A stretch of DNA of 56,722 nt, from positions 1 to 56,722 of the forward strand of contig JAWOLP010000022.1 in NCBI GenBank assembly GCA_033853355.1. Reading direction: 5' to 3'. Numbering within the stretch: position 1 is the stretch's first letter; each line of letters starts with the position of its first letter. Origin of the DNA: Candidatus Micrarchaeia archaeon. Its GTDB lineage: Archaea > Micrarchaeota > Micrarchaeia > Anstonellales > Bilamarchaeaceae. A model generated the notes under the pieces. It made no database searches and was not told the DNA's origin. It was given only the letters and a program-made list of their open reading frames with translations. The position numbers and the translations under genes are program-made. Shown one piece after another: positions 13,675 to 37,226 of this stretch.

Positions 13675-13699
13675 GGATGACCCAGGTATGCACTAAAAT

Positions 13700-17238: not shown

Positions 17239-17377
17239 AGGTAATTTATGGCTCGAACCCGATTTAAATATATGCTTTTCCATTTTCTGACACACCGGTG
17301 ATCATTGTCGCGATTCCTGGCCGTTGTGCTGTTCGGGTCTCCGGAGATTTATAAATGCGTGTCACAGAAAAAGAGGC

Positions 17378-25568: not shown

Positions 25569-25600
25569 GAGCTAGAGATGGATAAAAAGATAATAAAGGG

Positions 25601-26821
25601 TTATTGGATGAACTCGACCCTGGCGGTGTCGCGGTCGTAGAGGGCCAGCGTGATGGTCTCGCCGTGCCCCGAGAGCGTATCGATCTCGGCGGAGCTCTGG
25701 AGGAGCTTCCTCCGCACCGCCCTGAGGATCTCGATGTCCGTGTCGAGTATCACGATGTGGCGGCTGCCATCCGCCTTCCCGACGCCCGACACGTGGCCGC
25801 CGTCGAGGAATCCGGCGTACCTCAGGGAACCGACCGCCGAGAGGGAAAGGGAGTTGCCGTTGGACGCCGTCCTGAAGTCTTCGGTGACGCAGAAGATCTC
25901 GTTCGGGCTCGAGTCGAATATCTGGCGGGGGCCGTTCACGCGTCCGAGCCGGTAAGGGTCATAGAAGACGATCGCGTGGGAATACTGATGCTGGGGGGTG
26001 ATGCCGTTCGCCATCGAGTACTGCCAGGTCATCCGGTTCACGTCCCGGAATTCCTTGTAGTATCCGTCGGGATTCGATTGCTCCCTGGAGACCCATTCCA
26101 GCTCGAACTTGCCGTCCTTCCAGCCCCTCCAGTTCTCGAAAAGCGGATGGACCTCGCAGTCATTGTCGGCAGAATCCAGGATGGCCAGCGCGTTGACCGC
26201 CTGGCTCCTCGCGTTCCATCTGGAGCGCATGTCCTGCATCTCTTCCCTGGTCTTGGCCTGGCGCCCTTCCCCCGGAGCGTCCTCTCCTATCGTCGCTATG
26301 GCATGCGTCATCGAATCGACGATGTGGTCGATCTGGGGATCGTTGACCCTCTCGCCTTTCACATGGTACGTATGCGCCGTCGCCTCGCCGCCGCATTCCG
26401 CATGCGTGGCGATATAGCCCCGCCCCCGGGGGGAATCGAGGGCCTTGAATGCCCCGCCATGCCGCACGACGGAGCCTGCGGTCCGCTCGTGTATCATGGC
26501 GAAGGCGAGCAGGTTCACGAGGTTGAAAATCGCCGACCGGGCGTCGACGCACTGCTTCACGGCCACGTCGTACTGGCCGGGGAGCCTGTGCTCGAGCGGC
26601 CCGAACCTGTCGGTGAAATCCCGGACCACCGAGACGACGCGCTCGTTGCCGATGAGCAGCGCTTTCTGGGACAGCTCGATCGGGATCGGCTGCCTGTTCC
26701 TCATGGCGCCGTAAACGTCCTCTATCAGAGGCCTTTCCGGGTGGGCCCGGTAGTAGTCGCTCTTCCTCTCATAAAACGTCCTTTTGACCTCTGCGAGGTA
26801 CATCTTTTTCGGGTCTGCCAT
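25601..26821 (-). CDS. Duplicated beta-carbonic-anhydrase-fold protein, paralogue A (divergent)
   Basis: 406 aa. QCVDAR (CxDxR), then ATHAECGG (HxxC) 49 aa later. The second half (IFDSSPNEIFCVTED...HIVILDTDIE) parallels the second domain of paralogue B and lacks the Cys ligands. Confidence 0.7.
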   Translation of the reverse strand: MADPKKMYLAEVKRTFYERKSDYYRAHPERPLIEDVYGAMRNRQPIPIELSQKALLIGNERVVSVVRDFTDRFGPLEHRLPGQYDVAVKQCVDARSAIFNLVNLLAFAMIHERTAGSVVRHGGAFKALDSPRGRGYIATHAECGGEATAHTYHVKGERVNDPQIDHIVDSMTHAIATIGEDAPGEGRQAKTREEMQDMRSRWNARSQAVNALAILDSADNDCEVHPLFENWRGWKDGKFELEWVSREQSNPDGYYKEFRDVNRMTWQYSMANGITPQHQYSHAIVFYDPYRLGRVNGPRQIFDSSPNEIFCVTEDFRTASNGNSLSLSAVGSLRYAGFLDGGHVSGVGKADGSRHIVILDTDIEILRAVRRKLLQSSAEIDTLSGHGETITLALYDRDTARVEFIQ

Positions 26822-26854
26822 ATCATCTACCTGGTGTGCCGTAGCAGGGCCAAA

Positions 26855-26870
26855 CCCAGCGCGCGCTGGG
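26855..26870. promoter_or_regulatory. Perfect 16-nt palindrome in the 5' region of paralogue A
   Basis: CCCAGCGCGCGCTGGG, 34-49 nt upstream of ATG 26821. Either an operator or a 5'-UTR hairpin. Confidence 0.4.
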
Positions 26871-26994
26871 GTCAGTCATGCTAAAGCAGTGTCACCGTAT
26901 TATTCCGTGTCCAAAAGTGTTTTTAATGATTTCGTTTTAATCATTTTTTTTTATTATTTCACACTAGTGATGGAAACACGGCCCAAGGCCTGAT

Positions 26995-27017
26995 TCCGAC
27001 GAGCGTCGGATTTTTTT
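26995..27017 (+). terminator. Hairpin plus T7 run (terminator-like) with no upstream plus-strand gene
   Basis: TCCGAC-GAGC-GTCGGA followed by TTTTTTT. Preceded by GGCC-CAA-GGCC and an AT-rich TATA-like tract (26936-26960). Could delimit a very short sRNA. Confidence 0.3.
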
Positions 27018-27021
27018 CCAC

Positions 27022-27037
27022 GTTCCCCGCGGGGAAC
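27022..27037. promoter_or_regulatory. Perfect 16-nt palindrome just upstream of the paralogue B promoter
   Basis: GTTCCCCGCGGGGAAC ends about 26 nt upstream of the TATA box GATTTAAAAC (27063-27072). The position is typical of an upstream regulator site. Confidence 0.45.
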
Positions 27038-27062
27038 GGGGAGGTGCAGGTGGATTGCTCAG

Positions 27063-27072
27063 GATTTAAAAC
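27063..27072 (+). promoter_or_regulatory. TATA box for paralogue B (leaderless)
   Basis: GATTTAAAAC centred about 26 nt upstream of ATG 27094. Confidence 0.6.
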
Positions 27073-27093
27073 ACGGCGGTAAGAGATACTGCC

Positions 27094-28293
27094 ATGTCAA
27101 ACAGGCTCCCGCAGGGGATGCGGCACGTGGCCGCGCTCCATCACGAAGAACATGAGAAAAGGCACGCCGTGTTCATGAGCTATCATGCCGCGGACCAGCA
27201 GGAGCGGATACAGAAGAAGATCCGGCAGCGCCTGATGCTCGACCCGATCGAGGCGGCCTACGCCCTGCAGGAGGGCAACAAGAAGCACGTCTCCCGCGTG
27301 GAGGAGTTCCAGGGGGATTATCCCGAGAAGATAAAGACGCTCATGCTCGTCTGCGCCGACGCGCGCATGGGCGGCATGTTCGAGTTCGACGATTTCGCGA
27401 AGAGGGGGATTGCCGCGGTGTACGTCGCCGGCAACGTGTCCGACTTCCTGCAGACCGCGGGCGTCAAGGAGATATTCAGGCGGATGGACAACGATTCCTC
27501 GATAGTCATCACGGGCCACGCCAAGTGCGGCGCGGTCCATTGCGCGGCCGAGAAGGGCCATTACGACCATCTCCGGAACATCGCCAAGCTCCTCCACCTG
27601 GTCGCCCCGACCGGCGAGATAGACAACGTGAAGGCGCAGGCGGAGGCGCTTGCCGGGAGCGATGAGTTCCGGAAGCTGTCGGAGAAGAAGAACGTCCATC
27701 TGGTGACGGCGTACGTGGACATCGCCCACCACACCCCGCACGTGAGGCTTGTGGAGGACGGGGCCACGAGGGAGCAGGATCGGGAGCTGATTGCAAGGCT
27801 CGACCGGAAGTTCCAGGAATCGAACGCCGGGGAGGACCTCGCGTCCCACCAGTTCGCGCACACGGTCGTGATATCGGGGCCGGCCCTGCCTTTCGACGCC
27901 CGGGAGATCTTCTCTGCCGGCTCGAACGAGATATTCTGCGTCTCGGCGGGCGATTACGGCGGCAAGCGGCACAAGGGCCAGCTTTCCGAGGCCGAAGTCG
28001 CTTCAGTGGAGATGGCCTCCCTGGGCATGCTGGACGAGAAGGCCGTCGCCTCGATCGAGTATTCGGTCGAGAAGAACAAGTCGCAGCACATACTCCTGCT
28101 CCACACCGACCTGGCGGTCATCGATGCCTGGGAGGCGCAGCTGATAAAGATGAGCGAGATAGTCTCGAACGCCCTAGTCGAGGGGAGGCTCGAGATAACG
28201 ACCGCTGTGTATGATTCGAGCACCGGGCGCGTCACCATGGTGCGCCATCTCGTCAACGAGGATGCGGCTGCCGCGATATCTTCGAGGACCTGA
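27094..28293 (+). CDS. Duplicated beta-carbonic-anhydrase-fold protein, paralogue B (best-conserved active site)
   Basis: 399 aa. LVCADAR...VYVAGNVS...IVITGHAKCGAVHCA, with C-to-H spacing of 55 aa and HxxC, as in canonical beta-CAs. The second domain (REIFSAGSNEIFCVSAGD...SIEYSVEKNKSQHILLLHTDL) keeps the beta-CA strand pattern but has non-ligand residues at the CxDxR positions. N-terminus is His-rich. Confidence 0.75.
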   Translation: MSNRLPQGMRHVAALHHEEHEKRHAVFMSYHAADQQERIQKKIRQRLMLDPIEAAYALQEGNKKHVSRVEEFQGDYPEKIKTLMLVCADARMGGMFEFDDFAKRGIAAVYVAGNVSDFLQTAGVKEIFRRMDNDSSIVITGHAKCGAVHCAAEKGHYDHLRNIAKLLHLVAPTGEIDNVKAQAEALAGSDEFRKLSEKKNVHLVTAYVDIAHHTPHVRLVEDGATREQDRELIARLDRKFQESNAGEDLASHQFAHTVVISGPALPFDAREIFSAGSNEIFCVSAGDYGGKRHKGQLSEAEVASVEMASLGMLDEKAVASIEYSVEKNKSQHILLLHTDLAVIDAWEAQLIKMSEIVSNALVEGRLEITTAVYDSSTGRVTMVRHLVNEDAAAAISSRT

Positions 28294-28324
28294 CAGGTCG
28301 GTGCGGAACCGGGATGACATCCCT

Positions 28325-29689
28325 TCAATCCAGCAGCGCAAGCACGGAGGGCTCCTTTATGCGCCGGTTGAGCACCGACTTGGGATCCCTCGGGAAATCC
28401 TTTATCGACTGGTGGATCATCTTCCGCAGGTCGGGCTCGACTGTGGACACGTATGAGTTTATCCCCTCGGCCTCCACCTCTGGCACCGTGAGCACGTGCA
28501 GATGGACCCCCAGATGCTGCACGATGGCGTTCATGATCGGGTCGTTCTTGACCTTCCTCCGGATGTTGTTCGCTTCGAGGACGTCCTTGCCCAGGAGGTA
28601 ATAGTCCCGGAGCCCCAGGGTTACCATCGAATAGCATATGCCCCCCAGCTTGTAGGGGCCGAAGCTGCTGAAGGGGTTCAGAACGTTGGAGCCGGTCGCC
28701 AGGAAAACGCTGCCTGCGACATCGTAGTTGCTCGACTCCTTCAGGTTGAGGTAGCGTATCAGCGTCTCCCTCGGGTTGGTTATGTCCGGCGCGCAGATGA
28801 GGCCGCAGACCGGCTTCTGCTTGCTGCTCCGGCGTATCCGTTCAGGATGGTTTTCCGGGAGGTTGTCCATCACATATCGCATGAGGCCTGCCATGTCGTC
28901 GAGTATCGTGTGGACGTGGAGGTTGTCGTCTATGCGTATCTTCAGGCCCGTCCTGTAATTGAGGATCCCGCAGTTGACGTGCACCGGTATGCGTTCCAGC
29001 TCGTTGTCCGCATCCAGGGCCGTCCTCAGGTAGCGCTTGGAGATCAGGGGCTGCTTGATGAGGTCTATGCTGGTGAGGAAATCGTCCGCGCTCTTCCCCT
29101 CATGCGCATACACGCTCTTGAGGAGGAGGAACAGGTCATCGTCGTTGTCCAACATGATCGTGCGTTCCTTCTTCGCGGTCTTGTCGAAGAAGGTGATCTC
29201 CGGCTTGATATTGTAGAGCATGGCCCGGATGGCTTTCCACGCCTCGTTGGAGTGGCTCATGCCGCAGTTGATCTCCGAGTCGGGGTCGATGACCTCCACC
29301 TCGGTTTCCGGGTTGTAGACCAGCTTGTTGACATCCGGCACCTTGATGTCGGCATGTCCTGAGATCTGCACGACCGTCCGGTGCAGGACGCCAGGCCCGG
29401 GATCCACCCGCACCTTCTCGCCGAATTCGGCCAGGCTGCTGTTGAGGCCGCCCTTGATGATGTCTTTCAGCTCGATGTAGGATTGCTTGTTCACGACCGA
29501 GCCGGCTATCGTGACCCGCGAGACGATGACCTTGACGCCACGGGCCGCGTATTCCAGGATCAGGCTGCGCAGTATCTGGTTCTCCACTGAGCCCCCGTCC
29601 CGCGCGTCTCCGCAGCGGACCTGGATCACATGCTGTATCTCATCCACCGGATAGTTCACATTGAAAGAAAGAGTCGTCCTAGTTCCCAT
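28325..29689 (-). CDS. Beta-carbonic-anhydrase-fold protein, paralogue C (CsoSCA-like spacing, large insertions)
   Basis: 454 aa. VRCGDAR (CxDxR)...RVTIAGSVV...QISGHAD...EINCGM, with His 86 aa after the first Cys and the second Cys 30 aa later. C-terminal half (VFLATGSNVLNP...DYYLLGKDV) is related to the degenerate domains of A and B. Lies 156 nt downstream of the NuoB-like gene on the same strand. Confidence 0.65.
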   Translation of the reverse strand: MGTRTTLSFNVNYPVDEIQHVIQVRCGDARDGGSVENQILRSLILEYAARGVKVIVSRVTIAGSVVNKQSYIELKDIIKGGLNSSLAEFGEKVRVDPGPGVLHRTVVQISGHADIKVPDVNKLVYNPETEVEVIDPDSEINCGMSHSNEAWKAIRAMLYNIKPEITFFDKTAKKERTIMLDNDDDLFLLLKSVYAHEGKSADDFLTSIDLIKQPLISKRYLRTALDADNELERIPVHVNCGILNYRTGLKIRIDDNLHVHTILDDMAGLMRYVMDNLPENHPERIRRSSKQKPVCGLICAPDITNPRETLIRYLNLKESSNYDVAGSVFLATGSNVLNPFSSFGPYKLGGICYSMVTLGLRDYYLLGKDVLEANNIRRKVKNDPIMNAIVQHLGVHLHVLTVPEVEAEGINSYVSTVEPDLRKMIHQSIKDFPRDPKSVLNRRIKEPSVLALLD

Positions 29690-29845
29690 GCTGGATCATC
29701 CCGCAAACTCGACCGGTCCGTATCCGGATATCGGTCGTCTCAGCAACGGCTGCTGGCACATAGAATCCCTATACATATGATAGGATTGGCAATAGTTAAA
29801 TAGATTTCGATAATCGGGGATTCCGATTGCCGGCAAATCCCGGCT

Positions 29846-30391
29846 TCACTTGCCCTTGCGCTTCTTGTCGATGGCCATGCCGGCCTTCAGTATGCCTGCG
29901 AGCAGCGCGTACGGCTCGGGCGGGTTGCCTGGGACTTTCACATCGACCGGGATGACATCCTCGACGCGGCCGGAGCCTGCGAGGGCGTAGCCGCCCTTGA
30001 ACGGCCAGCCGGTGCATGCCCCGTCGCCGGCCGCGACGACCGCGCGCGGCTCGGCCATCGCCTCATAGGTCTTGAGAAGGGCGTCGCGCATGTTCAGCGC
30101 GACCGGTCCCGTGGCGATGAGCACGTCTGCGTGGCGGGGCGAGGCGACGAAATGCACCCCGAAGCGCTCGGCATCGACGCGGGGCGCCATCATCAGCTGC
30201 TCCTCCAGCTCGACGTCATTGGGCGAGCCGCAGTCCACCATGCGGACATGGATGGAGCGCGAGAAGAGCGAGAGGGGCCTCTGCTTGAGCAGCAGGGCGA
30301 CTTCCCGCACCGCCGGATCCGGCGACTTTTCCGACACCTTGTCGGGATAGAAATCAAACACGAATTTCAGGGTCTCTAGCAGCATGTTCAT
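29846..30391 (-). CDS. NuoB/HyfI/HycG-like small subunit lacking most [4Fe-4S] ligands
   Basis: VASPRHADVLIATGPV and IPVDVKVPGNPPEP match the family. The cluster motifs read VDCGSPNDVELE (family: GSCNGCEIE), GDGACTG (Cys kept) and PGNPP (family: PGCPP). Confidence 0.85.
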   Translation of the reverse strand: MNMLLETLKFVFDFYPDKVSEKSPDPAVREVALLLKQRPLSLFSRSIHVRMVDCGSPNDVELEEQLMMAPRVDAERFGVHFVASPRHADVLIATGPVALNMRDALLKTYEAMAEPRAVVAAGDGACTGWPFKGGYALAGSGRVEDVIPVDVKVPGNPPEPYALLAGILKAGMAIDKKRKGK

Positions 30392-30394
30392 CCC

Positions 30395-31963
30395 TCACAG
30401 GTCGGTCCCGGCATAGGACATGTTGAAGCTCTTGTTTATGAGCGGGAAATCCGGCACGATATTGCCTTCCACGGCCTTCTCTATGCCGCGCCAGTCCCTG
30501 AAGGACGCGGTGCGGCAGGCGAGGCGCCTTATCCTCCCCTCGCCGGAGAGCTCCACGAGGAAAGCGCACCCTCCGCGGGGGGCCTCGGTCCAGCCGACGC
30601 CGGTGCGCAGCTCTGTGCCCGTCTGGGCCTTGATTTCGCAGCGGGTCTTGCCTTCCGGCAGGTTGGAGACGAGCCACTTGATGAGCCTGGCCGATTCCTT
30701 GACTTCGGCGAGCTTGACCAGGAACCTGGCGAGCACGTCGCCCGTCTTCTCGGTGCGCTCGCTGAAACCAGCTGCGGAGTATGCCGAGTAGGGCATGACC
30801 TTGCGAAGGTCGCAGCTCACCCCGGACGCCCTGGCGACCGGCCCGACGAGGGCAAGGTCCTTCGCGACGGCCTGGTTGACGCGGCCGGTCGAGAAGACCC
30901 GGTCGAGGTATGTCGAAGAGGTGAGGGTCATCCGCTCGACCCCGTCGAGCCTCTTCTCGAAGAGGGCCAGGGCCTCCTTTATCGCGGATATCTCCTTTGC
31001 GCCAAGGTCCTTCGAGACGCCGCCGACGGCGCACACGCCCCGGAGGAAGCGGTTGCCGCTCACCAGCCGGTTCAGCCTCATCATGTCCTCGCGGAGGACG
31101 GCGAACCTGGAGGCGGAGAGCGTGAATCCCACGTCGGTGGGCATGCCGCCCAGGTCCGAGAGGTGGCTGTATATCCTCTCCATCTCAAGGAGGACCGCGC
31201 GAATGTATTCGGCCCGTTCCGGGACCTTGAGCGAGAGGGCGCGTTCAACAGCATAGCAGTATGCGACCGAATTGGCGACCGACTCGTCGCCGGATATCTG
31301 CTCGACCGTAGGCAGGATGTCGGCGGGGGCCTTCCCCTCGACCGCGCTCTCGAGGCCGCGGTGCAGGTAGAACATCCTCACCTCCATCTTGTTGATCTTC
31401 TCGCCCACCACGTGGAACCTGAAGTGGCCTGGCTCTATTATGCCGGCATGCACCGGCCCGACGGCGATCTCGAACTCGCCCTCGACGCCGGTCCCCTTCA
31501 TCGGATAGGTCCGGCTCGCCTGCTTCGGCATGGGCTTGCCGCTCATCGGGTGGGACTGGGGCAGGATGCCCTCGGGATGGAAGAGGAGCGGCCTCTGGTC
31601 CGGGATGTCCTGGAGCTTGAGGCCGGTCAGGTCCTGCATCTTCCTCTCGTCCCACAACGCGGCGTTGGCCTTGGCCGACAAAGCGGCGAATTCCTTCCCC
31701 TGCGACTGGAGCACGAGCATCTTGCCGGAGTCCTGGAGCCTGAAGAGGTAATAGACCGTGAATCCCGCTTTCTCGCCCTGGGGGGAGATGAAAGCGGAGT
31801 CGAAGACCGCGCCGTTGCCCATGGATGCCTCGCATGCGGGGACCAGATCGCCAGGCTTCACTTTCGCCCAGATGCAGCCTCCGCGGTCTTCCCATCTCTC
31901 CATCGACCCGCTCCGCATGGATTTCTGGATGATACCCATGAACCGTTTGGCTTCGTCAACCAT
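30395..31963 (-). CDS. Fused NuoC-NuoD / HyfG/HycE-like large subunit lacking all NiFe cysteine ligands
   Basis: GPVHAGIIEPGHFRF and FYLHRGLE are typical of group-4 large subunits. The N-terminal motif reads EQISGDESVANSVAY instead of RxCGxCxxxH. The C-terminus reads NMSYAGTDL instead of DPCxxCxxR. Confidence 0.85.
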   Translation of the reverse strand: MVDEAKRFMGIIQKSMRSGSMERWEDRGGCIWAKVKPGDLVPACEASMGNGAVFDSAFISPQGEKAGFTVYYLFRLQDSGKMLVLQSQGKEFAALSAKANAALWDERKMQDLTGLKLQDIPDQRPLLFHPEGILPQSHPMSGKPMPKQASRTYPMKGTGVEGEFEIAVGPVHAGIIEPGHFRFHVVGEKINKMEVRMFYLHRGLESAVEGKAPADILPTVEQISGDESVANSVAYCYAVERALSLKVPERAEYIRAVLLEMERIYSHLSDLGGMPTDVGFTLSASRFAVLREDMMRLNRLVSGNRFLRGVCAVGGVSKDLGAKEISAIKEALALFEKRLDGVERMTLTSSTYLDRVFSTGRVNQAVAKDLALVGPVARASGVSCDLRKVMPYSAYSAAGFSERTEKTGDVLARFLVKLAEVKESARLIKWLVSNLPEGKTRCEIKAQTGTELRTGVGWTEAPRGGCAFLVELSGEGRIRRLACRTASFRDWRGIEKAVEGNIVPDFPLINKSFNMSYAGTDL

Positions 31964-31966
31964 GCG

Positions 31967-33433
31967 TCATGCACCTCTTATGGCCGCGGCCGCCATCTGG
32001 AGCAGCCGTATCAGCTCGCCTGGAGGCGTCAGCCCGAAGTATATCGCGATCAGCAGGAGGACAACGAAGGGGGCTATCATGCTCAGGGCTGGCTTGAAAT
32101 CCGTGGCGATGGCGGATTTCGACCCGAAGCTCATCTGCGATGTCCGGTAAAGGAGGCTCGCGAAGGTTATCGTCGTGAAGAGTATCAGCAGGAGGGCGGG
32201 GATGTACTGGCCGGATGAGAGGGAGGCGGCGAGGATCCCCAGCTCGGAATAGAATGTGCCGAAGGGCGGGCTCCCGGAGATGCCGACGGCTATGAAGACG
32301 AACGAGATCGCGACTATCGGGAGCACCTGCGCCGCCCCGCTTATGAGGCGTATCTCCTTGGTGTTGAAAGCCAGGGCGATCATGCCGCTCGCCAGGAATG
32401 CGAGGGGCTTGGCGAGCGAATGCGATATCATGTGGAAGAGGGCTGCGAACACGCCTATCGGACCCCCGACCCCGAGGGCGAGGACGACGATGCCCATGTT
32501 CTCGACGCTGGAGTAGGCGAGCATGCGCTTGAGGTTGTCCTGGAAATACAGCCGCAGGGCCCCGACGGCCAGCGATAGGAGGCCGAAGACGATGAGCAGG
32601 GTGGAGGCGAAGGAGATCAGCTGAGGGTAGGGGCTCAGCATCTGGTAGGCCCGCACGAGGCCGTAGAAGGCGATGTTGAGCAGGACCCCTGAGAGCAGGG
32701 CGCTGACCGGGGTGGGCGCCTGGCTGTGCGCGTCCGGCAGCCACACATGGAGCGGGACCAGGCCGATCTTCGTGCCGAAGCCGACGACTATGAACGCGAA
32801 GGCTATCTTGAGGAAGAAGAGGTTCGCGCCCGCGCGGGCGGTGAGCAGGCTGGGCCAGTCGCCGCCGGACGACGAGCCGGGCTGGAAGACCGCGTAGAGG
32901 AAGAACATGATGCCGACGAGAGCCAGCAGGATGCCGACCGAATTGATGATGAAGAACTTCCATGCCGCCTCGATCGAGTTGGATGTGTTGTAGAAGCTTA
33001 TGAGGAACACGGTCGCGAGCGTGGTGGCCTCGATGGAAGCCCACATGACGATGATGTTCGAGGCGAGCGTGGCCGCGAGCATCGAAGCTAGGAAGAACGA
33101 GAGGAGGCCATAGTACATGCCCAGCTGGCCCTCGGAGACGATCTTCTCCTCGACCTCGTGGCGGATGTAGCCCACCGAATACACGAACACGAAGAAGGCG
33201 ACCACGACCGTGAGGGACGTGAAGACCGCGGAGACCGAGTCCATGTAGAGGTAGCCGTAGAAGTCGACTACCGGGGCAGGCGACTGCATGAAGCCCCAGA
33301 GGGCCGCGAAGGCGAAGGCGGCAGCGGCCGCGGCGCCCGCGACGGCGACGATCTCGGAGAAGCGGGGGTGCTTCTGGGAGAGGAACGCGAGCAGGCCGGC
33401 GATGATCGGAGCGAGTATTATCAGTTCGAGCAT
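31967..33433 (-). CDS. NuoN/HyfF/MrpD-like antiporter-type subunit
   Basis: 488 aa, about 14 TM helices. Proton_antipo_M-type core (WASIEATTLATVFLI, PLHVWLPDAHSQAPTPVSALLSGVLLN). Confidence 0.85.
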   Translation of the reverse strand: MLELIILAPIIAGLLAFLSQKHPRFSEIVAVAGAAAAAAFAFAALWGFMQSPAPVVDFYGYLYMDSVSAVFTSLTVVVAFFVFVYSVGYIRHEVEEKIVSEGQLGMYYGLLSFFLASMLAATLASNIIVMWASIEATTLATVFLISFYNTSNSIEAAWKFFIINSVGILLALVGIMFFLYAVFQPGSSSGGDWPSLLTARAGANLFFLKIAFAFIVVGFGTKIGLVPLHVWLPDAHSQAPTPVSALLSGVLLNIAFYGLVRAYQMLSPYPQLISFASTLLIVFGLLSLAVGALRLYFQDNLKRMLAYSSVENMGIVVLALGVGGPIGVFAALFHMISHSLAKPLAFLASGMIALAFNTKEIRLISGAAQVLPIVAISFVFIAVGISGSPPFGTFYSELGILAASLSSGQYIPALLLILFTTITFASLLYRTSQMSFGSKSAIATDFKPALSMIAPFVVLLLIAIYFGLTPPGELIRLLQMAAAAIRGA

Positions 33434-33437
33434 TGTG

Positions 33438-35096
33438 TCACCTTCTCTCTATGAGGTCGTCGAGCTCCTTGGTGTCGAGCGTTCCCACGGTCCCGCGTAT
33501 CTTCAGCGCGAGCAGTGTCGCGACTATCGTGAGCATCAGCACATCGAAGAGGGCGACCGCTTCCCCCACGAACGGCACCTGGATCGGCAGGGCTGTCGGG
33601 AGCAGCACGGCCCCGTTCTCCATCAGCAGGAATCCGATGAGCTGGAGCAGGAGGTTGGGCTTGACCGCGATTATCAGCAGGCCGACCAGTATGAGCGATA
33701 TGACGAGGGGGAGCATGAGCGTCGTCCCGCCGAGGACCGACGACAGCACGAAGGCGAGCACGATGAGCACGCAGGAGTATATCAGCGCGCGTGCCGTGGA
33801 GACCGGCGCCCCCATGAACAGCGGGTCGAAGTCGAGGTTCAGGCGCAGGTCGGCCTTCGTCGCCTTGAAGACGTTGTAGAAGCGCATTGGGAGCAGCTTC
33901 ACCTCGCCCGGCATGACCCTGAAGAGGTGGTAGAGCAGGATGGGCACGAGTATGAGCTTGAAGAGGACAGTCGAGCCCAGGCGGAAGTAGGCGTCTATCG
34001 TCGGCTCGTAGAGCACCTGGGAGAGGAAGATGAGCACCAGGCATGCGCTCTGGAGCGCGTAGAGCTCGAGGCTCCGCCGGAACGTCGCGCTGAAGATGAA
34101 GTAGAGCGAGCTGAGGAGCATGATGAGGAGGAGCGCGGTCGTGATGTTCTCCCCCGGCTGTGAGGCGAGGAAAAGGCGGGAGAGGAACGCGAGGACTGAG
34201 AGGATCATTGCGAGGATCAGGAGCTCCCCGACCTTGAACAGCCTCACCTTCACGCTTATGCTCTCGACGGTCGCGGTGATGACCGAGAGCGCCACCCCGA
34301 TGCCGAGCACCGCCGCGGCCCTCTCGAGGCCGTCCTGGGGCACGAACGGCAGGAACAGGACGCCCAGGAGGCTGAACAGCAGGAATATCTTGGCCGCATG
34401 CGCCCATTCGATGAGGGCCAGGTCCGGGCCCGAGTTCTCGAGTATCATCGCCTCATGGACCATGGTCAGCTCCAGGTGGGTCGCCGGGTTGTCGAAAGGC
34501 AGCCGCCCGGTCTCGGCCAGTATTATGACGAAGAGGGCCAGCGCGGCCAGCCAGTGGGCAGGCGCTAGCGCCTCGGTCCATGCCGAGGCCCCCGAGGCGA
34601 GCGGGACGATCAGGCTGTAGCCGCCCGACACCGCGAGGAAAAGGACGACCGCGAAAAGCGCCGGCTCTATGAGCACCGAGTAGAGCATCTCCCTGCTCGA
34701 GCCCAAGCCCCCGAAAGCGCTGCCCGCGTCGAGGCCGGACAGCGCGGTGAGGAAGCGGCTTATGGAGAAGGTGTAGGCGAAGAAGATGATGCTCACGGCC
34801 AGGTAGGGCGACGAGGAGAGTATCGGGAGCATGAGCGATGCAATCGCGATGGACACGAAGCCCACGACGGGAGCTATGACGAACACGAACGATGTGACGT
34901 CGCTCTTCTTGGTCCCCTTGGAGAGGAGCTTCAGCACGTCGAAGTAGGGCTGGAGGATGGGCCCGCCGGACCTCCCCTGGAAGCGGGCCTTGACCTTGCG
35001 CATTATGCCTATCAGCAGTGGCGCGAAGATGAAGACGAAGAGGATCTGCAGGAGCGCCTGCGCCGCGAGCGGGATGTTTTCAAGCATATGCATCAC
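33438..35096 (-). CDS. Fusion of NuoH/HyfC/HycD-like and HyfE/NuoK-like membrane subunits
   Basis: The N-terminal ~300 aa carry the NuoH-type RKVKARFQGRSGGPILQPYFDVLKLLSKG motif. The C-terminal ~230 aa are a multi-TM HyfE-like module. 552 aa is about the sum of HyfC and HyfE. Confidence 0.78.
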   Translation of the reverse strand: MMHMLENIPLAAQALLQILFVFIFAPLLIGIMRKVKARFQGRSGGPILQPYFDVLKLLSKGTKKSDVTSFVFVIAPVVGFVSIAIASLMLPILSSSPYLAVSIIFFAYTFSISRFLTALSGLDAGSAFGGLGSSREMLYSVLIEPALFAVVLFLAVSGGYSLIVPLASGASAWTEALAPAHWLAALALFVIILAETGRLPFDNPATHLELTMVHEAMILENSGPDLALIEWAHAAKIFLLFSLLGVLFLPFVPQDGLERAAAVLGIGVALSVITATVESISVKVRLFKVGELLILAMILSVLAFLSRLFLASQPGENITTALLLIMLLSSLYFIFSATFRRSLELYALQSACLVLIFLSQVLYEPTIDAYFRLGSTVLFKLILVPILLYHLFRVMPGEVKLLPMRFYNVFKATKADLRLNLDFDPLFMGAPVSTARALIYSCVLIVLAFVLSSVLGGTTLMLPLVISLILVGLLIIAVKPNLLLQLIGFLLMENGAVLLPTALPIQVPFVGEAVALFDVLMLTIVATLLALKIRGTVGTLDTKELDDLIERR

Positions 35097-37087
35097 GAGA
35101 CCGCGTATATCGCGAATAACAGCACAAGGCCGAGCGTGATCATGAGGTACATCAGGTAGTCGCTGAGCTTGCCGGAATGGAACACGGCCGAGTACGGGGC
35201 CAGGTAGTGGAAGGCGCGGGAGGCCGGATCATAGATGATATAATTGAAGAAAGCCGAGCCGTAGGCCGCCGCGGGCTTCGACAGCGGGTCGAGCCAGGCG
35301 TTGAGCGAACGGGTCACGGGCATGGCGAATCCCGCGGCCGAATACTGCATGCGCGGCGTGACGTCCTGGTAGCCGCAGCCCCATGTCTCGCCTGCCTCGT
35401 GCTTCCGGTTCCTTCCCGCGAAGCGGAGCCCTGCCCAGAGGAGGGCCGAGCCCAGTACGAGGGCGATCAGCACCGGCGCTGTCTGGATCCCTTCGGCGTA
35501 GACCGATATCGAGGAAGCCGAGGCCGGGAAGCCGAGGGATGAGAATACGCCGAGAGCGGCCTGCGCCCCGCCGAGGGGAAGCGCCCCTGCGGCGACGCAC
35601 GCGAGCGCGAGGAGCCCCATGCCGGCAAGCATCGAAGAGGGCACCTCCTTGGCATGGGCCGCGTGGGCGCTCCTAGGCATGCCGAGGAACGGGATGCCGA
35701 AAGCCTTCACGAACGCGCCCACGGCGAGGGCGCTGGTGAGGGCCAGGAACAGGACGCCGAGGGAGAGCAGGAGGGAGAGCTGGGCCGAAGGGCCGATGCC
35801 GCCGAGCAGCGCCTCGAAGGTGAGCAGCTCGCTGACGAACCCGTTGAGCGGGGGTATCGCTGCGATGGAAGCGGATGCGAGGAGGAACAGCACGGCCGTG
35901 GCCGGCATGAGCTTGGCCAGGCCCCCGAGCTCCTCGATGTTCCGCTGGTGGGTGGAGTAGGCGATGCTTCCGGCTCCTAGGAAGAGCAGGCTCTTGAATA
36001 TCGCGTGGTTGAACGTATGGTAGAGGGCGGCGAACAGCGCCAGGGCGGCCAGGGCCGGGATCTTCGCCCATGCGAAGAGGACGGCCGCGCCGAGCCCGAT
36101 GAATATTATGCCGATGTTCTCTATGCTGTGCATGGCGAGCAGGCGCTTGAGGTCATGCTCCAGGAGCGAGTAGAGCACGCCGAGCACGGCCGAGAACATG
36201 CCGAGCACCAGGATCACCGTGCCCCACCACATGGCCGCCCCTCCGTCCATGATGTGGAAGAACCCGAACAGGACGCGGACGAGGCCGTATATCGCGACCT
36301 TGAGCATGACGCCGGACATGAGGGCCGAGACGTTGCTCGGCGCCTGGGGATGGGCCAGCGGGAGCCAGGCGTGCAGGGGGATTATCCCGCATTTCGAGCC
36401 GAATCCGATCAGGGCGAGCACGAACACCGCGTCCGCGAACATCGGCGCGTAGGAGGCCGCCCCGAAGGAGCTGAAGTCCAATGAGCCGGAGCCGCCGGCC
36501 AGTATCAGGAACATCAGGGTGAGGGCGACGGCCCCTATATGAGTTATTATAAGATAGTTGAAGCCCGCGGTCTTTACCCCCTCCTCGCGGTGCTCGTAGG
36601 TCACGAGGAAGAACGAGCTGAGCGCCATCGCCTCCCAGACGACCAGGAAGAGCAGGGCGTTCTGGGCGGTCACGACGAGGATCATCGAGAGGAGGAAGAG
36701 ATTGTAGAGGAAGGCGAAGCGCCCCAGGTTATAGCCCTTCTCGCTGTATTCGCTGGAATAGCCGAACGAGTAGATCGAGACCGCGGCGCCCACGAAGGCG
36801 ATGATGGAGACGAAAAGCCCGGAGAGGGCATCCACGCTGACAGAGAGCGTGCCCAGCGGCGCGCCGAGCTGGGCGAACACCATCGTGCCCGGCCCCATCC
36901 CGATGAACGGGGCGATCCCGGCGAAGAGGGCCAGGGCGCATCCGACTAGCGCGAGGCCGAAGCCCAGGACCGTGCTGGCGCGCTGGTTCCTCGAAGCGAG
37001 CAGCGAGAAGGCGGAACCGGCGATGAATGCCAGCATGGATAGTGCAAGTGCGGGCTGGCCGAAAATGTTCGGATCACTTATTTGCAT
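35093..37087 (-). CDS. NuoL/HyfB/HycC-like antiporter-type subunit
   Basis: 664 aa. WEAMALSSFFLV and PLHAWLPLAHPQAPSNVSALMSGVMLK are typical of the family. 4-nt overlap with the next gene. Confidence 0.88.
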   Translation of the reverse strand: MQISDPNIFGQPALALSMLAFIAGSAFSLLASRNQRASTVLGFGLALVGCALALFAGIAPFIGMGPGTMVFAQLGAPLGTLSVSVDALSGLFVSIIAFVGAAVSIYSFGYSSEYSEKGYNLGRFAFLYNLFLLSMILVVTAQNALLFLVVWEAMALSSFFLVTYEHREEGVKTAGFNYLIITHIGAVALTLMFLILAGGSGSLDFSSFGAASYAPMFADAVFVLALIGFGSKCGIIPLHAWLPLAHPQAPSNVSALMSGVMLKVAIYGLVRVLFGFFHIMDGGAAMWWGTVILVLGMFSAVLGVLYSLLEHDLKRLLAMHSIENIGIIFIGLGAAVLFAWAKIPALAALALFAALYHTFNHAIFKSLLFLGAGSIAYSTHQRNIEELGGLAKLMPATAVLFLLASASIAAIPPLNGFVSELLTFEALLGGIGPSAQLSLLLSLGVLFLALTSALAVGAFVKAFGIPFLGMPRSAHAAHAKEVPSSMLAGMGLLALACVAAGALPLGGAQAALGVFSSLGFPASASSISVYAEGIQTAPVLIALVLGSALLWAGLRFAGRNRKHEAGETWGCGYQDVTPRMQYSAAGFAMPVTRSLNAWLDPLSKPAAAYGSAFFNYIIYDPASRAFHYLAPYSAVFHSGKLSDYLMYLMITLGLVLLFAIYAVS

Positions 37088-37226
37088 ATTCTAAGACCTT
37101 CTGGCCGGTAAAATTCAACATAATTCAATGTGAAGATTTTTAAAGATGGCTGGGCTCGCCGGGTCGGCATGCCGGTCCGCGGCGCGTTTTCAGACTGTTT
37201 TTAATAATTCGGGGCGAGAGACAATC

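What the first reader, a model, noticed from the sequence alone, without database searches (positions are those of the whole stretch)
25601..37087. Cofactor-less complex-I/Hyf-like membrane module clustered with three beta-carbonic-anhydrase-fold proteins: candidate energy-coupled CO2/HCO3- (or COS/CS2) system
Seen: five minus-strand genes packed with gaps or overlaps of 4 nt or less (37087 down to 29846). They encode HyfB/NuoL-like, fused HyfC/NuoH+HyfE-like, HyfF/NuoN-like, HyfG/NuoCD-like and HyfI/NuoB-like subunits, in hyf gene order. The window contains no HyfA/HyfH/NuoI-type 2x[4Fe-4S] subunit, no formate dehydrogenase and no hyp maturation gene. The metal-ligand cysteines of both peripheral subunits are replaced (see separate finding). 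The next three genes (28325-29689, 27094-28293, 25601-26821) each carry the beta-CA zinc-site pattern CxDxR...H..C. purE, a CO2/HCO3--consuming step, is divergently adjacent to the operon promoter. Established: the precedents I know for antiporter-type complex-I modules working with CA-like proteins are cyanobacterial NDH-1 with CupA/CupB and the DabA/DabB inorganic-carbon pump. Cofactor-less relatives of group-4 hydrogenases have been catalogued (Ehr-type complexes) without an assigned function. Inference: this module cannot do NiFe or FeS redox chemistry. It may instead couple ion translocation to vectorial hydration/dehydration by the CA-like proteins, which would be an archaeal analogue of DAB/Cup built from different parts. 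Beta-CA-fold enzymes also include CS2 and COS hydrolases, so the substrate is open.
Basis: partly seen in the sequence, partly recalled or inferred. Interest (0 to 1): 0.92.

Follow-up and report, generated by a model that had tools for sequence, protein, structure and literature searches.

The report
Cofactor-less Ehr complex flanked by carbonic-anhydrase-like genes
In a tiny DPANN archaeon (Micrarchaeota), the genes for a metal-free relative of membrane hydrogenases and respiratory complex I sit next to three unusual carbonic-anhydrase-like genes, a pairing kept across the phylum that suggests, but does not prove, an ion-gradient-coupled CO2/bicarbonate machine.

Summary
Five tightly packed minus-strand genes (29846-37087) encode an Ehr-type complex ("energy-converting hydrogenase related"). 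All four NiFe cysteines and three of the four FeS cysteines are replaced. The replacement motifs are conserved across more than 120 protein clusters, so this is not a decayed hydrogenase.

The three neighbouring genes are all two-domain beta-carbonic-anhydrase-like proteins:
- B (on the + strand, not the minus strand) passes Pfam Pro_CA and folds like CsoSCA.
- C is a full-length paralogue of B.
- A belongs to a rare family with no Pfam model. Its only invariant residues are Cys-Asp-Arg, Gly, His and Cys-Gly-Met, and it is homologous to B (hhalign 94.6%).

In 13 of 15 distinct Micrarchaeota Ehr loci, such CA-like genes directly flank the operon. Their type, side and strand vary.

Four points weaken the functional link:
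- Housekeeping genes (aRF1, glmS) are conserved neighbours too.
- Orientation is often divergent or convergent rather than operonic.
- B homologues also occur without an adjacent Ehr.
- The same Ehr family in five outgroup loci (one Methanoregula, one Thermoplasmatota, one Aenigmarchaeota, two of unknown taxonomy) has no CA-like neighbour.

A DAB/Cup-like, ion-gradient-coupled CO2 hydration system is the best single hypothesis (about 0.4) but is unproven. I rate it a new variant of known kinds and worth an experiment.

The parts
35093..37087 (-). EhrA / HyfB / NuoL-like antiporter-type subunit (664 aa, about 14 hydrophobic segments)
   Evidence: Pfam Proton_antipo_M 4.5e-47; NCBIfam hydrogenase 4 subunit B 1.4e-182. 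Retains candidates for the TM5 Glu (E151), TM7 Lys (K232), TM8 Lys (K263), HxxxHxxxK (357-365) and TM12 Glu (E420). These were read from the sequence by motif, not by structural alignment.
33438..35096 (-). Fused EhrB+EhrC (NuoH/HyfC-like plus HyfE/NuoK-like) membrane subunit (552 aa)
   Evidence: Pfam NADHdh 3.6e-33 (residues 16-302) and Oxidored_q2 (461-546). NCBIfam hydrogenase 4 membrane subunit HyfE over 316-548. In the outgroup operons these are two separate genes.
31967..33433 (-). EhrD / HyfF / NuoN(M)-like antiporter-type subunit (488 aa)
   Evidence: Pfam Proton_antipo_M 2.2e-53; NCBIfam hydrogenase 4 subunit F 3.5e-115. Candidate residues E135, K222, H334/H338/K342 and E397 are present.
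30395..31963 (-). EhrL: NuoC+NuoD / HycE-like large subunit without NiFe ligands (522 aa)
   Evidence: Best solved relative is E. coli HycE 7z0s_E, 1.7e-61. Its cysteine motifs are replaced by ISGDESVAN and NKSFNMSYAGTDL. The C-terminal replacement motif is present in essentially every full-length one of the 120 best clusters, archaea outside Micrarchaeota included; the strict search pattern for the ISGDE motif matched most Micrarchaeota clusters but only a minority of the outgroup clusters.
29846..30391 (-). EhrS: NuoB / HycG-like small subunit lacking three of the four [4Fe-4S] cysteines (181 aa)
   Evidence: Pfam Oxidored_q6 2.3e-19. Alignment to HycG (7z0s_G) and MbhJ (6cfw_J) shows SPNDV in place of the CNGC motif and PGNPP in place of PGCPP. 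The same holds in the 15 Micrarchaeota loci and in the 4 outgroup loci where the gene is intact; in L024 only the first motif can be read because the gene is split.
28325..29689 (-). CA-like protein A (454 aa): founding member of a rare two-domain beta-CA-like family with no Pfam model
   Evidence: No Pfam, NCBIfam or PDB sequence hit. Only 93 clusters among 1.84 billion representatives. Invariant residues across 54 members are C26, D28, R30, G63, H112, C142, G143 and M144. hhalign to family B gives 94.6%, E 7e-8. AF2 pLDDT 88.6; best Foldseek hit is the tandem beta-CA 1ddz_A, E 9e-4, TM 0.35.
27094..28293 (+). CA-like protein B (399 aa): two-domain beta-CA with a canonical zinc site in domain 1 and a ligand-less domain 2
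   Evidence: Pfam Pro_CA 2.1e-10, above threshold. C87, D89, R91, H142 and C145 are invariant in 15 homologues. AF2 pLDDT 82.9. Foldseek full-length hits: 1ddz_A 4e-10 and CsoSCA 8thm_C 8.5e-6, followed by many beta-CAs.
25601..26821 (-). CA-like protein C (406 aa): full-length paralogue of B with CVDAR...HAECG; followed 32 nt later by glmS on the same strand
   Evidence: BLASTP B against C: 24% identity over the whole length, E 8e-15. Matches the B-family HMM at 1.7e-16. C91, D93, R95, H140 and C143 align with B's ligands.
26822..27093 (.). AT-rich divergent intergenic region between C and B (candidate shared promoter region)
   Evidence: Read directly from the sequence. The available tools have no archaeal promoter model, so this is inference only.
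37146..37664 (+). purE (AIR carboxylase family), divergent from hyfB by 58 nt; a possible but weak functional neighbour
   Evidence: Pfam AIRC 3.4e-51. The adjacency is kept in close relatives (L003/L010). In L020 purE lies between hyfI and a CA-like gene.

Best explanation
The locus encodes an Ehr complex (EhrA, EhrB+C fused, EhrD, EhrL, EhrS). This is a membrane machine built like the membrane arm plus the NuoB/NuoD/NuoH junction of complex I and group-4 hydrogenases. It has no NiFe site and no iron-sulfur cluster, so it cannot be driven by electron transfer.

In Micrarchaeota this complex is genetically linked to a lineage-specific radiation of soluble, two-domain (pseudo-dimeric) beta-carbonic-anhydrase-like zinc enzymes. 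In this window these are A, B and C.

My preferred mechanism is as follows. The CA-like proteins interconvert CO2 and HCO3- in the cytoplasm. At least some of them, most plausibly the A type and the non-canonical C and 'D' types, act at or on the Ehr complex. The proton released or consumed at the zinc site would then be exchanged with the ion-translocation path of the antiporter-like subunits. The membrane H+/Na+ gradient would thereby make CO2 hydration directional, giving inorganic-carbon capture for carboxylations such as purine synthesis, and/or pH homeostasis. This is analogous to DabAB and to NDH-1/CupA.

Shown: the subunit identities, the loss of metal ligands, retention of the transporter residues, the beta-CA fold and ligand set, and conserved adjacency within the phylum.

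Inferred: zinc binding, CA activity, any contact with Ehr, and the direction and coupling of the reaction.
For: - Ehr identity and the cofactor-less state.
- The ligand-replacing motifs are under strong conservation in Micrarchaeota and beyond, so the complex is functional rather than decayed.
- Antiporter-type charged residues are retained.
- B is a bona fide beta-CA domain protein and folds like CsoSCA and the Porphyridium tandem CA.
- C is a paralogue of B.
- The only invariant residues of family A are the beta-CA catalytic set, and A is homologous to B. The predicted topology places Cys, His and Cys at the canonical positions (end of beta1, end of beta3, N-cap of the next helix).
- CA-like genes are the immediate neighbours of the Ehr operon in 13 of 15 distinct Micrarchaeota loci. 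Subunit identity among these loci falls to about 50%, and the position and strand of the CA-like genes have been rearranged.
- In L011, L012 and L021 CA-like genes follow hyfI on the same strand at 9-185 nt (distances between called ORFs).
- In L008, A-type and C-type genes stay together around a Na+/H+ exchanger gene.
- In L020, purE lies between hyfI and a CA-like gene.
- Precedent: DabA is also a two-beta-CA-domain protein whose closest fold is CsoSCA, and it works on a NuoL-like subunit (PMC13144422; bioRxiv 10.64898/2026.05.01.722082).
Against: - There is no evidence of physical contact. A, B and C have no hydrophobic segment comparable to DabA's membrane finger, and none of them matched a DabA-type or CupA-type family in the Pfam scan.
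- Five outgroup Ehr operons have no CA-like neighbour, so Ehr works without them. One is from Thermoplasmatota, one from Aenigmarchaeota, one from Methanoregula and two are of unknown taxonomy.
- aRF1, glmS, a PQQ-propeller gene and L11 are also conserved neighbours, so vertical synteny alone can explain much of the adjacency.
- In L013-L016, L022, L009 and L020 the CA-like genes are divergent from or convergent with the operon.
- B-type homologues in L004 and L005 have no Ehr within 7-10 kb on the sides with sequence.
- Ehr loci L018 and L019 have no CA-like neighbour.
- In this window A is separated from hyfI by 156 nt of AT-rich sequence and may have its own promoter.
Confidence: 0.4

Rival explanations
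1. Two unrelated systems sit side by side. Ehr has its own still unknown function, for example a redox-independent cation/proton transporter, as in other archaea. The CA-like proteins are ordinary cytoplasmic carbonic anhydrases that multiplied by local duplication. They remain next to Ehr only because this chromosomal region is conserved by descent in Micrarchaeota.
For: - aRF1 lies on one side and glmS, a PQQ-propeller gene and L11 on the other in many of the same loci.
- Tandem paralogues occur (two A genes in L007, two D genes in L012).
- Orientation is mixed.
- Outgroup Ehr operons stand alone.
- B-type genes occur without Ehr.
- Some Ehr loci have no CA-like gene.
Against: - The CA-like genes are always the innermost neighbours. 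In 13 of 15 loci nothing but another CA-like gene, or purE in L020, lies between them and the operon. This holds even though their side, strand and subtype have changed repeatedly.
- Carrying two or three divergent, non-canonical CA paralogues is unusual in organisms generally described as having small genomes (general knowledge about DPANN archaea; not measured here).
- Family A is very rare (93 clusters among 1.84 billion representatives). Every A-type locus recovered with a taxonomic label is from Micrarchaeota.
Confidence: 0.3
2. The CA-like proteins are linked to Ehr but do not act as CO2 hydratases. One option is that they are structural or regulatory cap subunits, like the gamma-CA domain of plant complex I. 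Another is that they act on a different small molecule, such as COS, CS2 or another heterocumulene, as some beta-CA-fold enzymes do.
For: - A, C and the 'D' type are far from canonical beta-CAs. None reaches Pfam thresholds (A and C were scanned directly; the D-type products carry at most a weak precomputed Pro_CA hit).
- A has a roughly 27-residue insertion between His and the second Cys.
- The 'D' type carries CxDxR in the second domain and GHGGxxxCGA in the first.
- One paralogue in L021 has lost the ligands altogether.
- From general knowledge, CS2 and COS hydrolases share the beta-CA fold and ligand set.
Against: - The catalytic Cys/Asp/Arg/His/Cys set is the only invariant feature of family A across 54 sequences, which argues for catalysis at a zinc site rather than a purely structural role.
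- B is a canonical beta-CA by sequence.
- Nothing in the neighbourhood points to sulfur metabolism.
Confidence: 0.15
3. Ehr is still a redox enzyme that receives electrons from a partner encoded elsewhere, for example a formate dehydrogenase as proposed for Margulisbacteria, or a flavoprotein. On this view the CA-like proteins are incidental, or they serve a CO2/formate reaction.
For: - The literature proposes FDH-Ehr complexes (PMC6349859) and reports higher Ehr abundance with formate in Geobacter (PMC7894505).
- An FNR-like gene (FAD_binding_6 plus NAD_binding_1) lies at 19207-19953.
- A similar gene abuts the B homologue in L005.
Against: - Three of the four ligands of the cluster that would hand electrons to the active site are gone, as are all NiFe ligands. 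This is so in the 15 Micrarchaeota loci and in the 4 outgroup loci with an intact small-subunit gene.
- There is no ferredoxin-type motif anywhere in the window.
- No redox partner is conserved next to any of the 20 Ehr operons examined.
Confidence: 0.08
4. The operon is a decaying formate-hydrogenlyase/Hyf hydrogenase, that is, a set of pseudogenes in the making.
For: The closest solved relatives are E. coli FHL subunits, and the gene order is hyf-like.
Against: - All five ORFs are intact and tightly packed.
- The substituted motifs are conserved from Micrarchaeota to methanogens (the C-terminal one nearly identically), and subunit identities are 50-90%.
- Transporter residues are retained.
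Confidence: 0.02

Closest known systems
Ehr complexes (energy-converting hydrogenase related; EhrA/B/C/D/L/S, e.g. Geobacter sulfurreducens GSU0739-0745)
   Same: - The same six-module composition and hyf-like gene order.
- A large subunit without the CxxC NiFe ligands, and no ferredoxin-type subunit.
- The literature describes them as catalogued but without a known role (PMC6349859, PMC10432482, PMC7894505).
   Different: - Here EhrB and EhrC are fused.
- In Micrarchaeota the operon is flanked by beta-CA-like genes, which I did not find next to the five outgroup Ehr operons examined.
- I found no mention of this association in the papers searched.
DAB inorganic-carbon pump (DabA + DabB)
   Same: - A beta-CA-like protein made of two beta-CA domains with one Cys/His/Cys + Asp/Arg site and CsoSCA as its closest fold.
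- It is paired with a complex-I antiporter-type membrane protein and needs no redox chemistry (PMC13144422; bioRxiv 10.64898/2026.05.01.722082).
- B shows the same CsoSCA-like two-domain fold.
   Different: - A, B and C matched no Pfam family other than B's Pro_CA hit, so no DabA-type (DUF2309) family was detected.
- They have no N-terminal helical domain of about 280 residues and no membrane-inserting helices.
- The membrane partner would be a five-gene Ehr complex with NuoH/NuoD/NuoB-like parts, not a single NuoL-like protein.
- Coupling is unproven here.
Cyanobacterial NDH-1MS/MS' with CupA/CupB (ChpY/ChpX)
   Same: A complex-I-type membrane machine proposed to make CO2 hydration directional by removing the proton through an antiporter-like subunit (PMC6981117).
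   Different: - NDH-1 is redox driven and keeps its FeS clusters. This complex has none.
- CupA is not a beta-CA-fold protein (general knowledge).
- A, B and C matched no Pfam family other than B's Pro_CA hit, so no CupA/ChpX-type family was detected.
CsoSCA (alpha-carboxysomal carbonic anhydrase) and the Porphyridium purpureum tandem beta-CA
   Same: - One chain carrying two beta-CA domains that mimic the beta-CA dimer.
- In CsoSCA, as in B, only one domain keeps the zinc ligands.
- Full-length Foldseek matches for B: 1ddz_A 4e-10 and 8thm_C 8.5e-6. 1ddz_A is also the best match for A.
   Different: - About 12% sequence identity and TM-scores of only 0.35-0.48.
- A, B and C matched no Pfam family other than B's Pro_CA hit, so no CsoSCA-specific family was detected.
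- No carboxysome or Rubisco family appeared among the roughly 48 window ORFs scanned.
E. coli formate hydrogenlyase (Hyc) / Hyf group-4a [NiFe] hydrogenase
   Same: - The closest solved relatives of the two peripheral subunits: 7z0s_E 1.7e-61 and 7z0s_G 2.3e-24.
- hyf gene order.
   Different: No NiFe ligands, no FeS ligands, no HycB/HycF-type ferredoxin subunits, no formate dehydrogenase and no hyp genes in the window.

Membership tests
Ehr complex (hydrogenase-related, non-hydrogenase group-4 relatives) | A set of subunits homologous to NuoL, NuoH, NuoK/HyfE, NuoN/M, NuoD(+C) and NuoB, encoded in one operon | tested here: met
   Pfam and NCBIfam hits for all five ORFs, one of which is a NuoH+HyfE fusion. 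Gaps or overlaps are 4 nt or less.
Ehr complex (hydrogenase-related, non-hydrogenase group-4 relatives) | The large subunit lacks the two CxxC motifs that bind NiFe | tested here: met
   Alignment to HycE shows CGiC replaced by SGdE and CysC by MsyA. The C-terminal replacement is present in essentially all of the 120 best clusters.
Ehr complex (hydrogenase-related, non-hydrogenase group-4 relatives) | No ferredoxin-like (NuoI/HyfH/HycF) subunit and no dedicated electron-input module in the operon | tested here: met
   No CxxCxxCxxxC[PAG] motif in six frames of the window. None was found in 14 further Micrarchaeota loci or 5 outgroup loci, judged by Pfam on the called genes.
[NiFe] hydrogenase group 4a (Hyf/FHL-2) | Four cysteine ligands of the NiFe site, plus the proximal [4Fe-4S] cluster in the small subunit | tested here: not met
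   All four NiFe cysteines are absent and three of the four FeS cysteines are absent.
Beta-carbonic anhydrase (Pfam Pro_CA, PF00484) | Score above the Pfam gathering threshold | tested here: inconclusive
   B meets it: 41.5 bits against a cut-off of 25.7. A and C do not, and none of 54 family-A members hits any relevant Pfam family.
Beta-carbonic anhydrase (Pfam Pro_CA, PF00484) | Zinc ligands Cys, His, Cys plus the Asp-Arg dyad (CxDxR ... HxxC) | tested here: met
   - B: C87/D89/R91/H142/C145, invariant in 15 sequences.
- C: C91/D93/R95/H140/C143.
- A: C26/D28/R30/H112/C142, invariant in 54 sequences, but with 30 residues between His and Cys instead of 3.
Beta-carbonic anhydrase (Pfam Pro_CA, PF00484) | Beta-CA fold | tested here: met
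   - B: more than 20 beta-CA structures at Foldseek E<1e-3 with probability 1.0.
- A: the best hit is beta-CA 1ddz_A (E 9e-4, probability 0.99), but TM is only 0.35. This is reinforced by hhalign A against B at 94.6%.
- C: by paralogy with B only; no model was made.
Beta-carbonic anhydrase (Pfam Pro_CA, PF00484) | Zinc content and CO2 hydration activity | not testable with these tools
   Requires purified protein (ICP-MS, stopped-flow or MIMS assay) or complementation of a CA-free E. coli.
DAB pump (DabA/DabB) | DabA family membership (DUF2309), including the N-terminal helical domain and the conserved DAB motifs | tested here: not met
   The Pfam scan of A, B and C at E<=0.01 returned only Pro_CA for B, so no DabA-type family was detected. 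The proteins are 399-454 aa, against roughly 800 or more for DabA (PMC13144422).
DAB pump (DabA/DabB) | A membrane-inserting helix or finger of the CA subunit that contacts the NuoL-like subunit | tested here: not met
   No hydrophobic segment: the maximum 19-residue Kyte-Doolittle mean is 1.46 or less in A, B and C.
DAB pump (DabA/DabB) | Gradient-dependent, one-directional CO2 hydration | not testable with these tools
   Needs uptake assays with and without uncouplers in a CA-free host.
NDH-1MS / CupA-type CO2 uptake | A CupA/ChpY-family protein bound to a redox-active NDH-1 | tested here: not met
   The Pfam scan returned no CupA/ChpX-type family for A, B or C. The complex has no FeS ligands.
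CsoSCA (carboxysomal CA) | Sequence membership of the CsoSCA family, and a carboxysome context | tested here: not met
   The Pfam scan returned no CsoSCA-specific family. There is fold similarity only (8thm_C, E 8.5e-6, TM 0.48, 12% identity). No carboxysome or Rubisco family appeared among the window ORFs scanned.

The most novel reading that the evidence does not exclude
In Micrarchaeota, one or more of the two-domain beta-CA-like proteins dock on the cofactor-less Ehr complex to form a vectorial carbonic anhydrase driven by the membrane ion gradient. This would be a third, independently assembled solution after NDH-1/Cup and DAB. It would also be the first function assigned to any Ehr complex, showing that the complex-I/hydrogenase scaffold can be driven by acid-base chemistry instead of electron transfer.
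Probability: 0.25. Interest if true: 0.9.

Novelty: new variant of a known kind. Interest (0 to 1): 0.68.

Why it matters
Ehr complexes are widespread in bacteria and archaea. They have been catalogued for about two decades without an assigned function (PMC6349859, PMC10432482, PMC7894505). They pose a basic question: what can a complex-I/hydrogenase scaffold do once every redox cofactor is gone?

A phylum-wide genetic link to zinc enzymes that make or consume a proton turns that question into a concrete, testable hypothesis. The experiments are cheap: complementation of a CA-free E. coli with and without the operon, pull-downs, and multimer structure prediction.

Three further points follow.
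- It would extend the DAB/Cup principle of "vectorial" carbonic anhydrases to archaea, and to heterotrophic organisms with reduced genomes.
- It defines new beta-CA-like families (A type, 'D' type) that current domain libraries miss, so CA inventories of DPANN genomes are underestimates.
- These operons are annotated in public records as hydrogenase or NADH-quinone oxidoreductase subunits (names shown). That would wrongly credit these organisms with H2 metabolism.

Tried and rejected
1. Sequence searches of A and C, and of the family-A profile, against PDB chains gave nothing useful. The beta-CA assignment of A had to come from predicted fold, invariant residues and profile-profile comparison instead.
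2. The first A-against-B profile comparison, with only 12 sequences, was weak (37%). It became convincing only with the 54-sequence alignment (94.6%).
3. The reverse neighbourhood test gave little.
   - With A1 it returned only 3 loci, two of them too short to be informative.
4. The genome-level co-occurrence test failed to decide anything.
   - I compared NCBI accessions of CA-like proteins from L005 and L008 with those of 10 EhrL homologues.
   - None came from the same assemblies.
   - This is inconclusive because only part of the list could be checked and the genomes are incomplete MAGs.
5. One outgroup look-up (P0114, Methanosarcina) found no contig on record.
6. I considered purE as a functional anchor and down-weighted it. 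The adjacency recurs only in close relatives and once in L020.
7. I rejected the "decayed hydrogenase" reading because of conservation of the motifs.
8. I rejected the H237..C240 pattern in A as a zinc site because it is not conserved.
9. Literature searches for a described Ehr-CA link, or for this operon in Micrarchaeota, found none. The library does not hold most subscription-journal papers, so absence is not proof.
10. I could not check the geometry of the predicted zinc site in A, because model coordinates are not exposed.

Full report
WHAT THE WINDOW IS

The window has 59-65% G+C. It carries an intron-containing tRNA, found by Rfam but missed by ARAGORN, together with archaeal aRF1 and ribosomal protein L11. 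Every close homologue of the genes of interest that carries a taxonomic name comes from Candidatus Micrarchaeota (DPANN archaea). A published survey notes that some Micrarchaeota orders have high G+C and de novo nucleotide synthesis (PMC8561730). That fits the presence of purE here.

THE MEMBRANE MODULE

Five minus-strand ORFs run from 37087 down to 29846. They are separated by a 4-nt overlap and gaps of 4, 3 and 3 nt. Pfam and NCBIfam identify them as follows:
- HyfB/NuoL-like
- a fusion of NuoH/HyfC-like and HyfE/NuoK-like parts
- HyfF/NuoN-like
- NuoC+NuoD/HycE-like
- NuoB/HycG-like

The closest solved structures of the two peripheral subunits are E. coli formate hydrogenlyase HycE (7z0s_E, 1.7e-61) and HycG (7z0s_G, 2.3e-24). 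The residue-by-residue alignments show the following:
- Both CxxC pairs of the NiFe site are replaced: CGiC by SGdE, and dpCysC by nMsyA.
- Three of the four ligands of the proximal [4Fe-4S] cluster are replaced: SPNDV in place of the CNGC motif, and PGNPP for PGCPP.

No CxxCxxCxxxC[PAG] motif exists in any frame of the window. About 48 ORFs scanned against Pfam gave no ferredoxin-type subunit, formate dehydrogenase or hyp gene.

The two antiporter-like subunits keep candidates for the conserved TM5 Glu, TM7 Lys, TM11 His/His/Lys and TM12 Glu. I read these by motif, not by structural superposition. They suggest that ion translocation is retained.

This composition is that of an Ehr complex (EhrA/B/C/D/L/S). 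The literature describes Ehr as related to group-4 hydrogenases, lacking the NiFe ligands, and of unknown physiological role (PMC6349859, PMC10432482, PMC7894505).

NOT A DECAYED COPY

The replacement motifs are strongly conserved.
- In the 120 best EhrL clusters, the C-terminal motif NKS(F/L/M)N(L/M)SYAG(T/A/N)D(L/M) is present in essentially every full-length sequence.
- The ISGDE(S/T/A)xAN motif was recognised by my strict pattern in most Micrarchaeota clusters, but in only a minority of the outgroup clusters.
- The outgroup clusters, at about 40-46% identity, include ones named Methanoregula, Methanosarcina, Methanomicrobiales, Thermoplasmatota and Aenigmarchaeota.
- EhrS shows GS(P/D/S)N..E.E and PGNPP in the Micrarchaeota loci and in the four outgroup loci with an intact gene; in L024 the gene is split and only the first motif can be read.

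The cofactor-less state is therefore an old, selected property of a widespread family. Whatever happens at the former active site is common to all of these complexes.

THE THREE NEIGHBOURING PROTEINS

B (27094-28293) is on the + strand, contrary to the finding.
- It passes the Pfam Pro_CA threshold over residues 83-205.
- It aligns to Mycobacterium beta-CA Rv3588c around C87-D89-R91 and H142-C145.
- Those residues are invariant in 15 homologues.
- Its AlphaFold model (pLDDT 82.9) matches, over its full length, the Porphyridium tandem beta-CA (1ddz_A, 4e-10) and the carboxysomal CsoSCA (8thm_C, 8.5e-6). Dozens of single-domain beta-CAs follow.
- B is thus a two-domain pseudo-dimer. Its second domain keeps D268/R270 but has no cysteine ligand, as in CsoSCA.

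C (25601-26821, minus strand) has no Pfam hit.
- It is a full-length paralogue of B (24% identity, E 8e-15).
- It carries CVDAR and HAECG at the aligned positions.

A (28325-29689, minus strand) has no Pfam, NCBIfam or PDB sequence match.
- Its family is tiny: 14 clusters in the 5.8-billion-protein search and 93 clusters among 1.84 billion representatives.
- None of 54 members hits any relevant Pfam family.
- In those 54 sequences, with identity down to 15%, the only invariant residues are C26, D28, R30, G63, H112, C142, G143 and M144. That is the catalytic set of a beta-CA and little else.
- A profile-profile comparison with family B gives 94.6% probability (E 7e-8) over 244 columns. It aligns CxDxR with CxDxR, His with His, and the second domains with each other.
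- The AlphaFold model (pLDDT 88.6) has 1ddz_A as its best PDB match (E 9e-4, probability 0.99, TM 0.35), with other beta-CAs behind it.
- In both models the first Cys sits at the end of beta1, the His at the end of beta3, and the second Cys at the start of the following helix.
- A differs by a hairpin of about 27 residues between His and Cys. DabA and CsoSCA also have a long His-Cys spacing (bioRxiv 10.64898/2026.05.01.722082).
- The H237..C240 pattern in A is not conserved and is not the site.

None of the three proteins has a hydrophobic segment.

IS THE NEIGHBOURHOOD CONSERVED?

A scan of one genome per species with the EhrS alignment returned 14 Micrarchaeota loci with 10-kb flanks. The metagenome scan added one more (L028). 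L010 is the same contig as L003, and L011 the same as L001.

I mapped all eight proteins by tblastn, and by HMMs built from the CA-like families. CA-like genes are the immediate neighbours of the operon in 13 of the 15 distinct loci recovered besides the window. The window itself shows the same arrangement.

| Locus | CA-like genes flanking the Ehr operon |
|---|---|
| window, L010, L028 | A + B + C |
| L009 | B + 'D' |
| L011 | A upstream (divergent); C-like + 'D' downstream |
| L012 | 'D' + 'D' |
| L013-L016, L022 | a distant A-type upstream (divergent) and another downstream (convergent) |
| L017 | A-type upstream |
| L020 | 'D' downstream, with purE in between |
| L021 | one upstream, two downstream |
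| L018 (upstream side cut off), L019 | none |

The 'D' type is a further subfamily. Its first domain has GHGGxxxCGA but no CxDxR, and its second domain has CC(V/I/M)D(A/G/S)R. This suggests descent from a tandem beta-CA with two sites, which different paralogues lost differently.

WHY THIS IS NOT YET PROOF OF A FUNCTIONAL LINK

1. aRF1 lies upstream and glmS, a PQQ-propeller gene and L11 lie downstream in many of the same loci. The whole region is inherited vertically, and unrelated genes can stay adjacent.
2. Only in window/L010/L028, L011, L012 and L021 are CA-like genes co-directional with and downstream of the operon. Elsewhere they are divergent or convergent. Here, A is separated from ehrS by 156 nt of AT-rich DNA, and B and C share a divergent AT-rich spacer.
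3. B-type homologues in L004 and L005 have no Ehr on the 7-10 kb of flank available. In L008, A-type and C-type genes flank a Na+/H+ exchanger gene on a short contig without Ehr.
4. Five outgroup Ehr operons are stand-alone six-gene units. One is from Thermoplasmatota, one from Aenigmarchaeota, one from Methanoregula and two are of unknown taxonomy. None has a CA-like neighbour or any other conserved neighbour.

The fold is beta-CA, synteny exists, and no relative has intact ligands or a redox module. But the positive case rests on adjacency within one phylum.

MECHANISM

What is shown:
- a redox-incompetent complex that keeps candidates for the charged transport residues;
- soluble proteins with intact beta-CA catalytic sets;
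- a persistent innermost-neighbour relationship, despite repeated rearrangement and paralogue turnover.

What I infer as most likely (about 0.4) is that the CA-like enzymes interconvert CO2 and HCO3-, and that at least some of them work with Ehr. The proton made at the zinc site would be passed to, or taken from, the ion path. The membrane gradient would thereby make hydration directional, giving inorganic-carbon capture and/or pH control.

The recent DAB structures are the closest working precedent. DabA is two beta-CA-like domains with a single buried site and CsoSCA as its nearest fold. It is coupled to a NuoL-like proton conduit (PMC13144422; bioRxiv 10.64898/2026.05.01.722082). NDH-1 with CupA is the other precedent (PMC6981117).

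Membership of those families fails. No DabA-type, CupA-type or CsoSCA-specific Pfam family was detected, there is no membrane finger, and the membrane partner is different. The claim is therefore "may work like", not "is a".

The main rival (about 0.3) is plain coexistence by synteny and local duplication. Lesser rivals are:
- a non-CA chemistry or a structural role for the CA-like proteins (0.15);
- a remote redox partner (0.08);
- gene decay (0.02).

NOVELTY AND VERDICT

Ehr complexes, beta-CAs and the idea of antiporter-coupled carbonic anhydrases are all known. Three things appear to be new:
- the phylum-wide pairing of an Ehr operon with beta-CA-like genes;
- the A-type and 'D'-type beta-CA-like families, which current domain libraries do not recognise;
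- the concrete hypothesis this gives for an Ehr function.

I found no paper describing any of these, within the limits of the library. I rate it a new variant of known kinds, with interest 0.68. It remains high because it makes an old open question directly testable.

Noticed in passing
window 14170-15828 (-) and 15871-17295 (-): Two adjacent large ORFs (552 and 474 aa) each carry a RelA_SpoT nucleotidyltransferase domain (Pfam 8.6e-11 and 7.4e-09). A tandem pair of alarmone-synthetase-like genes is unexpected in a DPANN archaeon.
   Followed up: no
L009 11794-12993, L011 12041-13384, L012 6650-7861 and 7968-9152, L020 11117-12268, L021 1707-2942: A further CA-like subfamily ('D' type). Its first domain has GHGGxxxCGA but no CxDxR, and its second domain carries CC(V/I/M)D(A/G/S)R. 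[quoted passage not shown] Whether they form one composite site or two half-sites is unknown.
   Followed up: partly
window 19207-19953 (+); L005 6306-7043: A ferredoxin-NADP-reductase-like gene (FAD_binding_6 + NAD_binding_1) lies about 5.6 kb from CA-like gene C in the window. A similar gene sits directly beside the stand-alone B homologue in L005. This could be a relic of shared synteny or a functional hint.
   Followed up: no
L003 9466-10831 (= L010 10688-12053): In the closely related 345-kb contig, the A gene is split into two overlapping ORFs (181 + 276 aa). This is a frameshift or an assembly error. The gene is intact in the window and in L028.
   Followed up: partly
window 10407-10537 (+): A 131-nt tRNA gene, presumably with an intron, found by Rfam (57.6 bits). 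ARAGORN reported no tRNA in the window.
   Followed up: no
window 12149-14083 (-): A glutamine synthetase ORF of 644 aa whose Pfam domains start only at residue 190. Either it has a long N-terminal extension or the GTG start is called too far upstream.
   Followed up: no
L008 3292-7231: An A-type gene, a Na+/H+ exchanger gene (PF00999) on the opposite strand, and a C-type gene lie together on a 7.2-kb Micrarchaeota contig with no Ehr. CA-like genes therefore sit next to a different cation/proton transporter here.
   Followed up: partly
L019 10626-14489: Downstream of the Ehr operon that lacks CA-like neighbours lies a 1287-aa type II/IV secretion ATPase gene. It is interrupted by an intein with a LAGLIDADG endonuclease domain.
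   Followed up: no
window 25568-25601: CA-like gene C is followed after only 32 nt by glmS on the same strand, so C may be co-transcribed with glmS rather than with the Ehr operon. In L018, glmS lies about 0.7 kb downstream of ehrS with no CA-like gene and no other large ORF in between.
   Followed up: partly
window 40405-42504 (-), 5219-6508 (-), 8566-9702 (-), 55201-56502 (+): Several long ORFs (378-699 aa) have no Pfam match at all.
   Followed up: no
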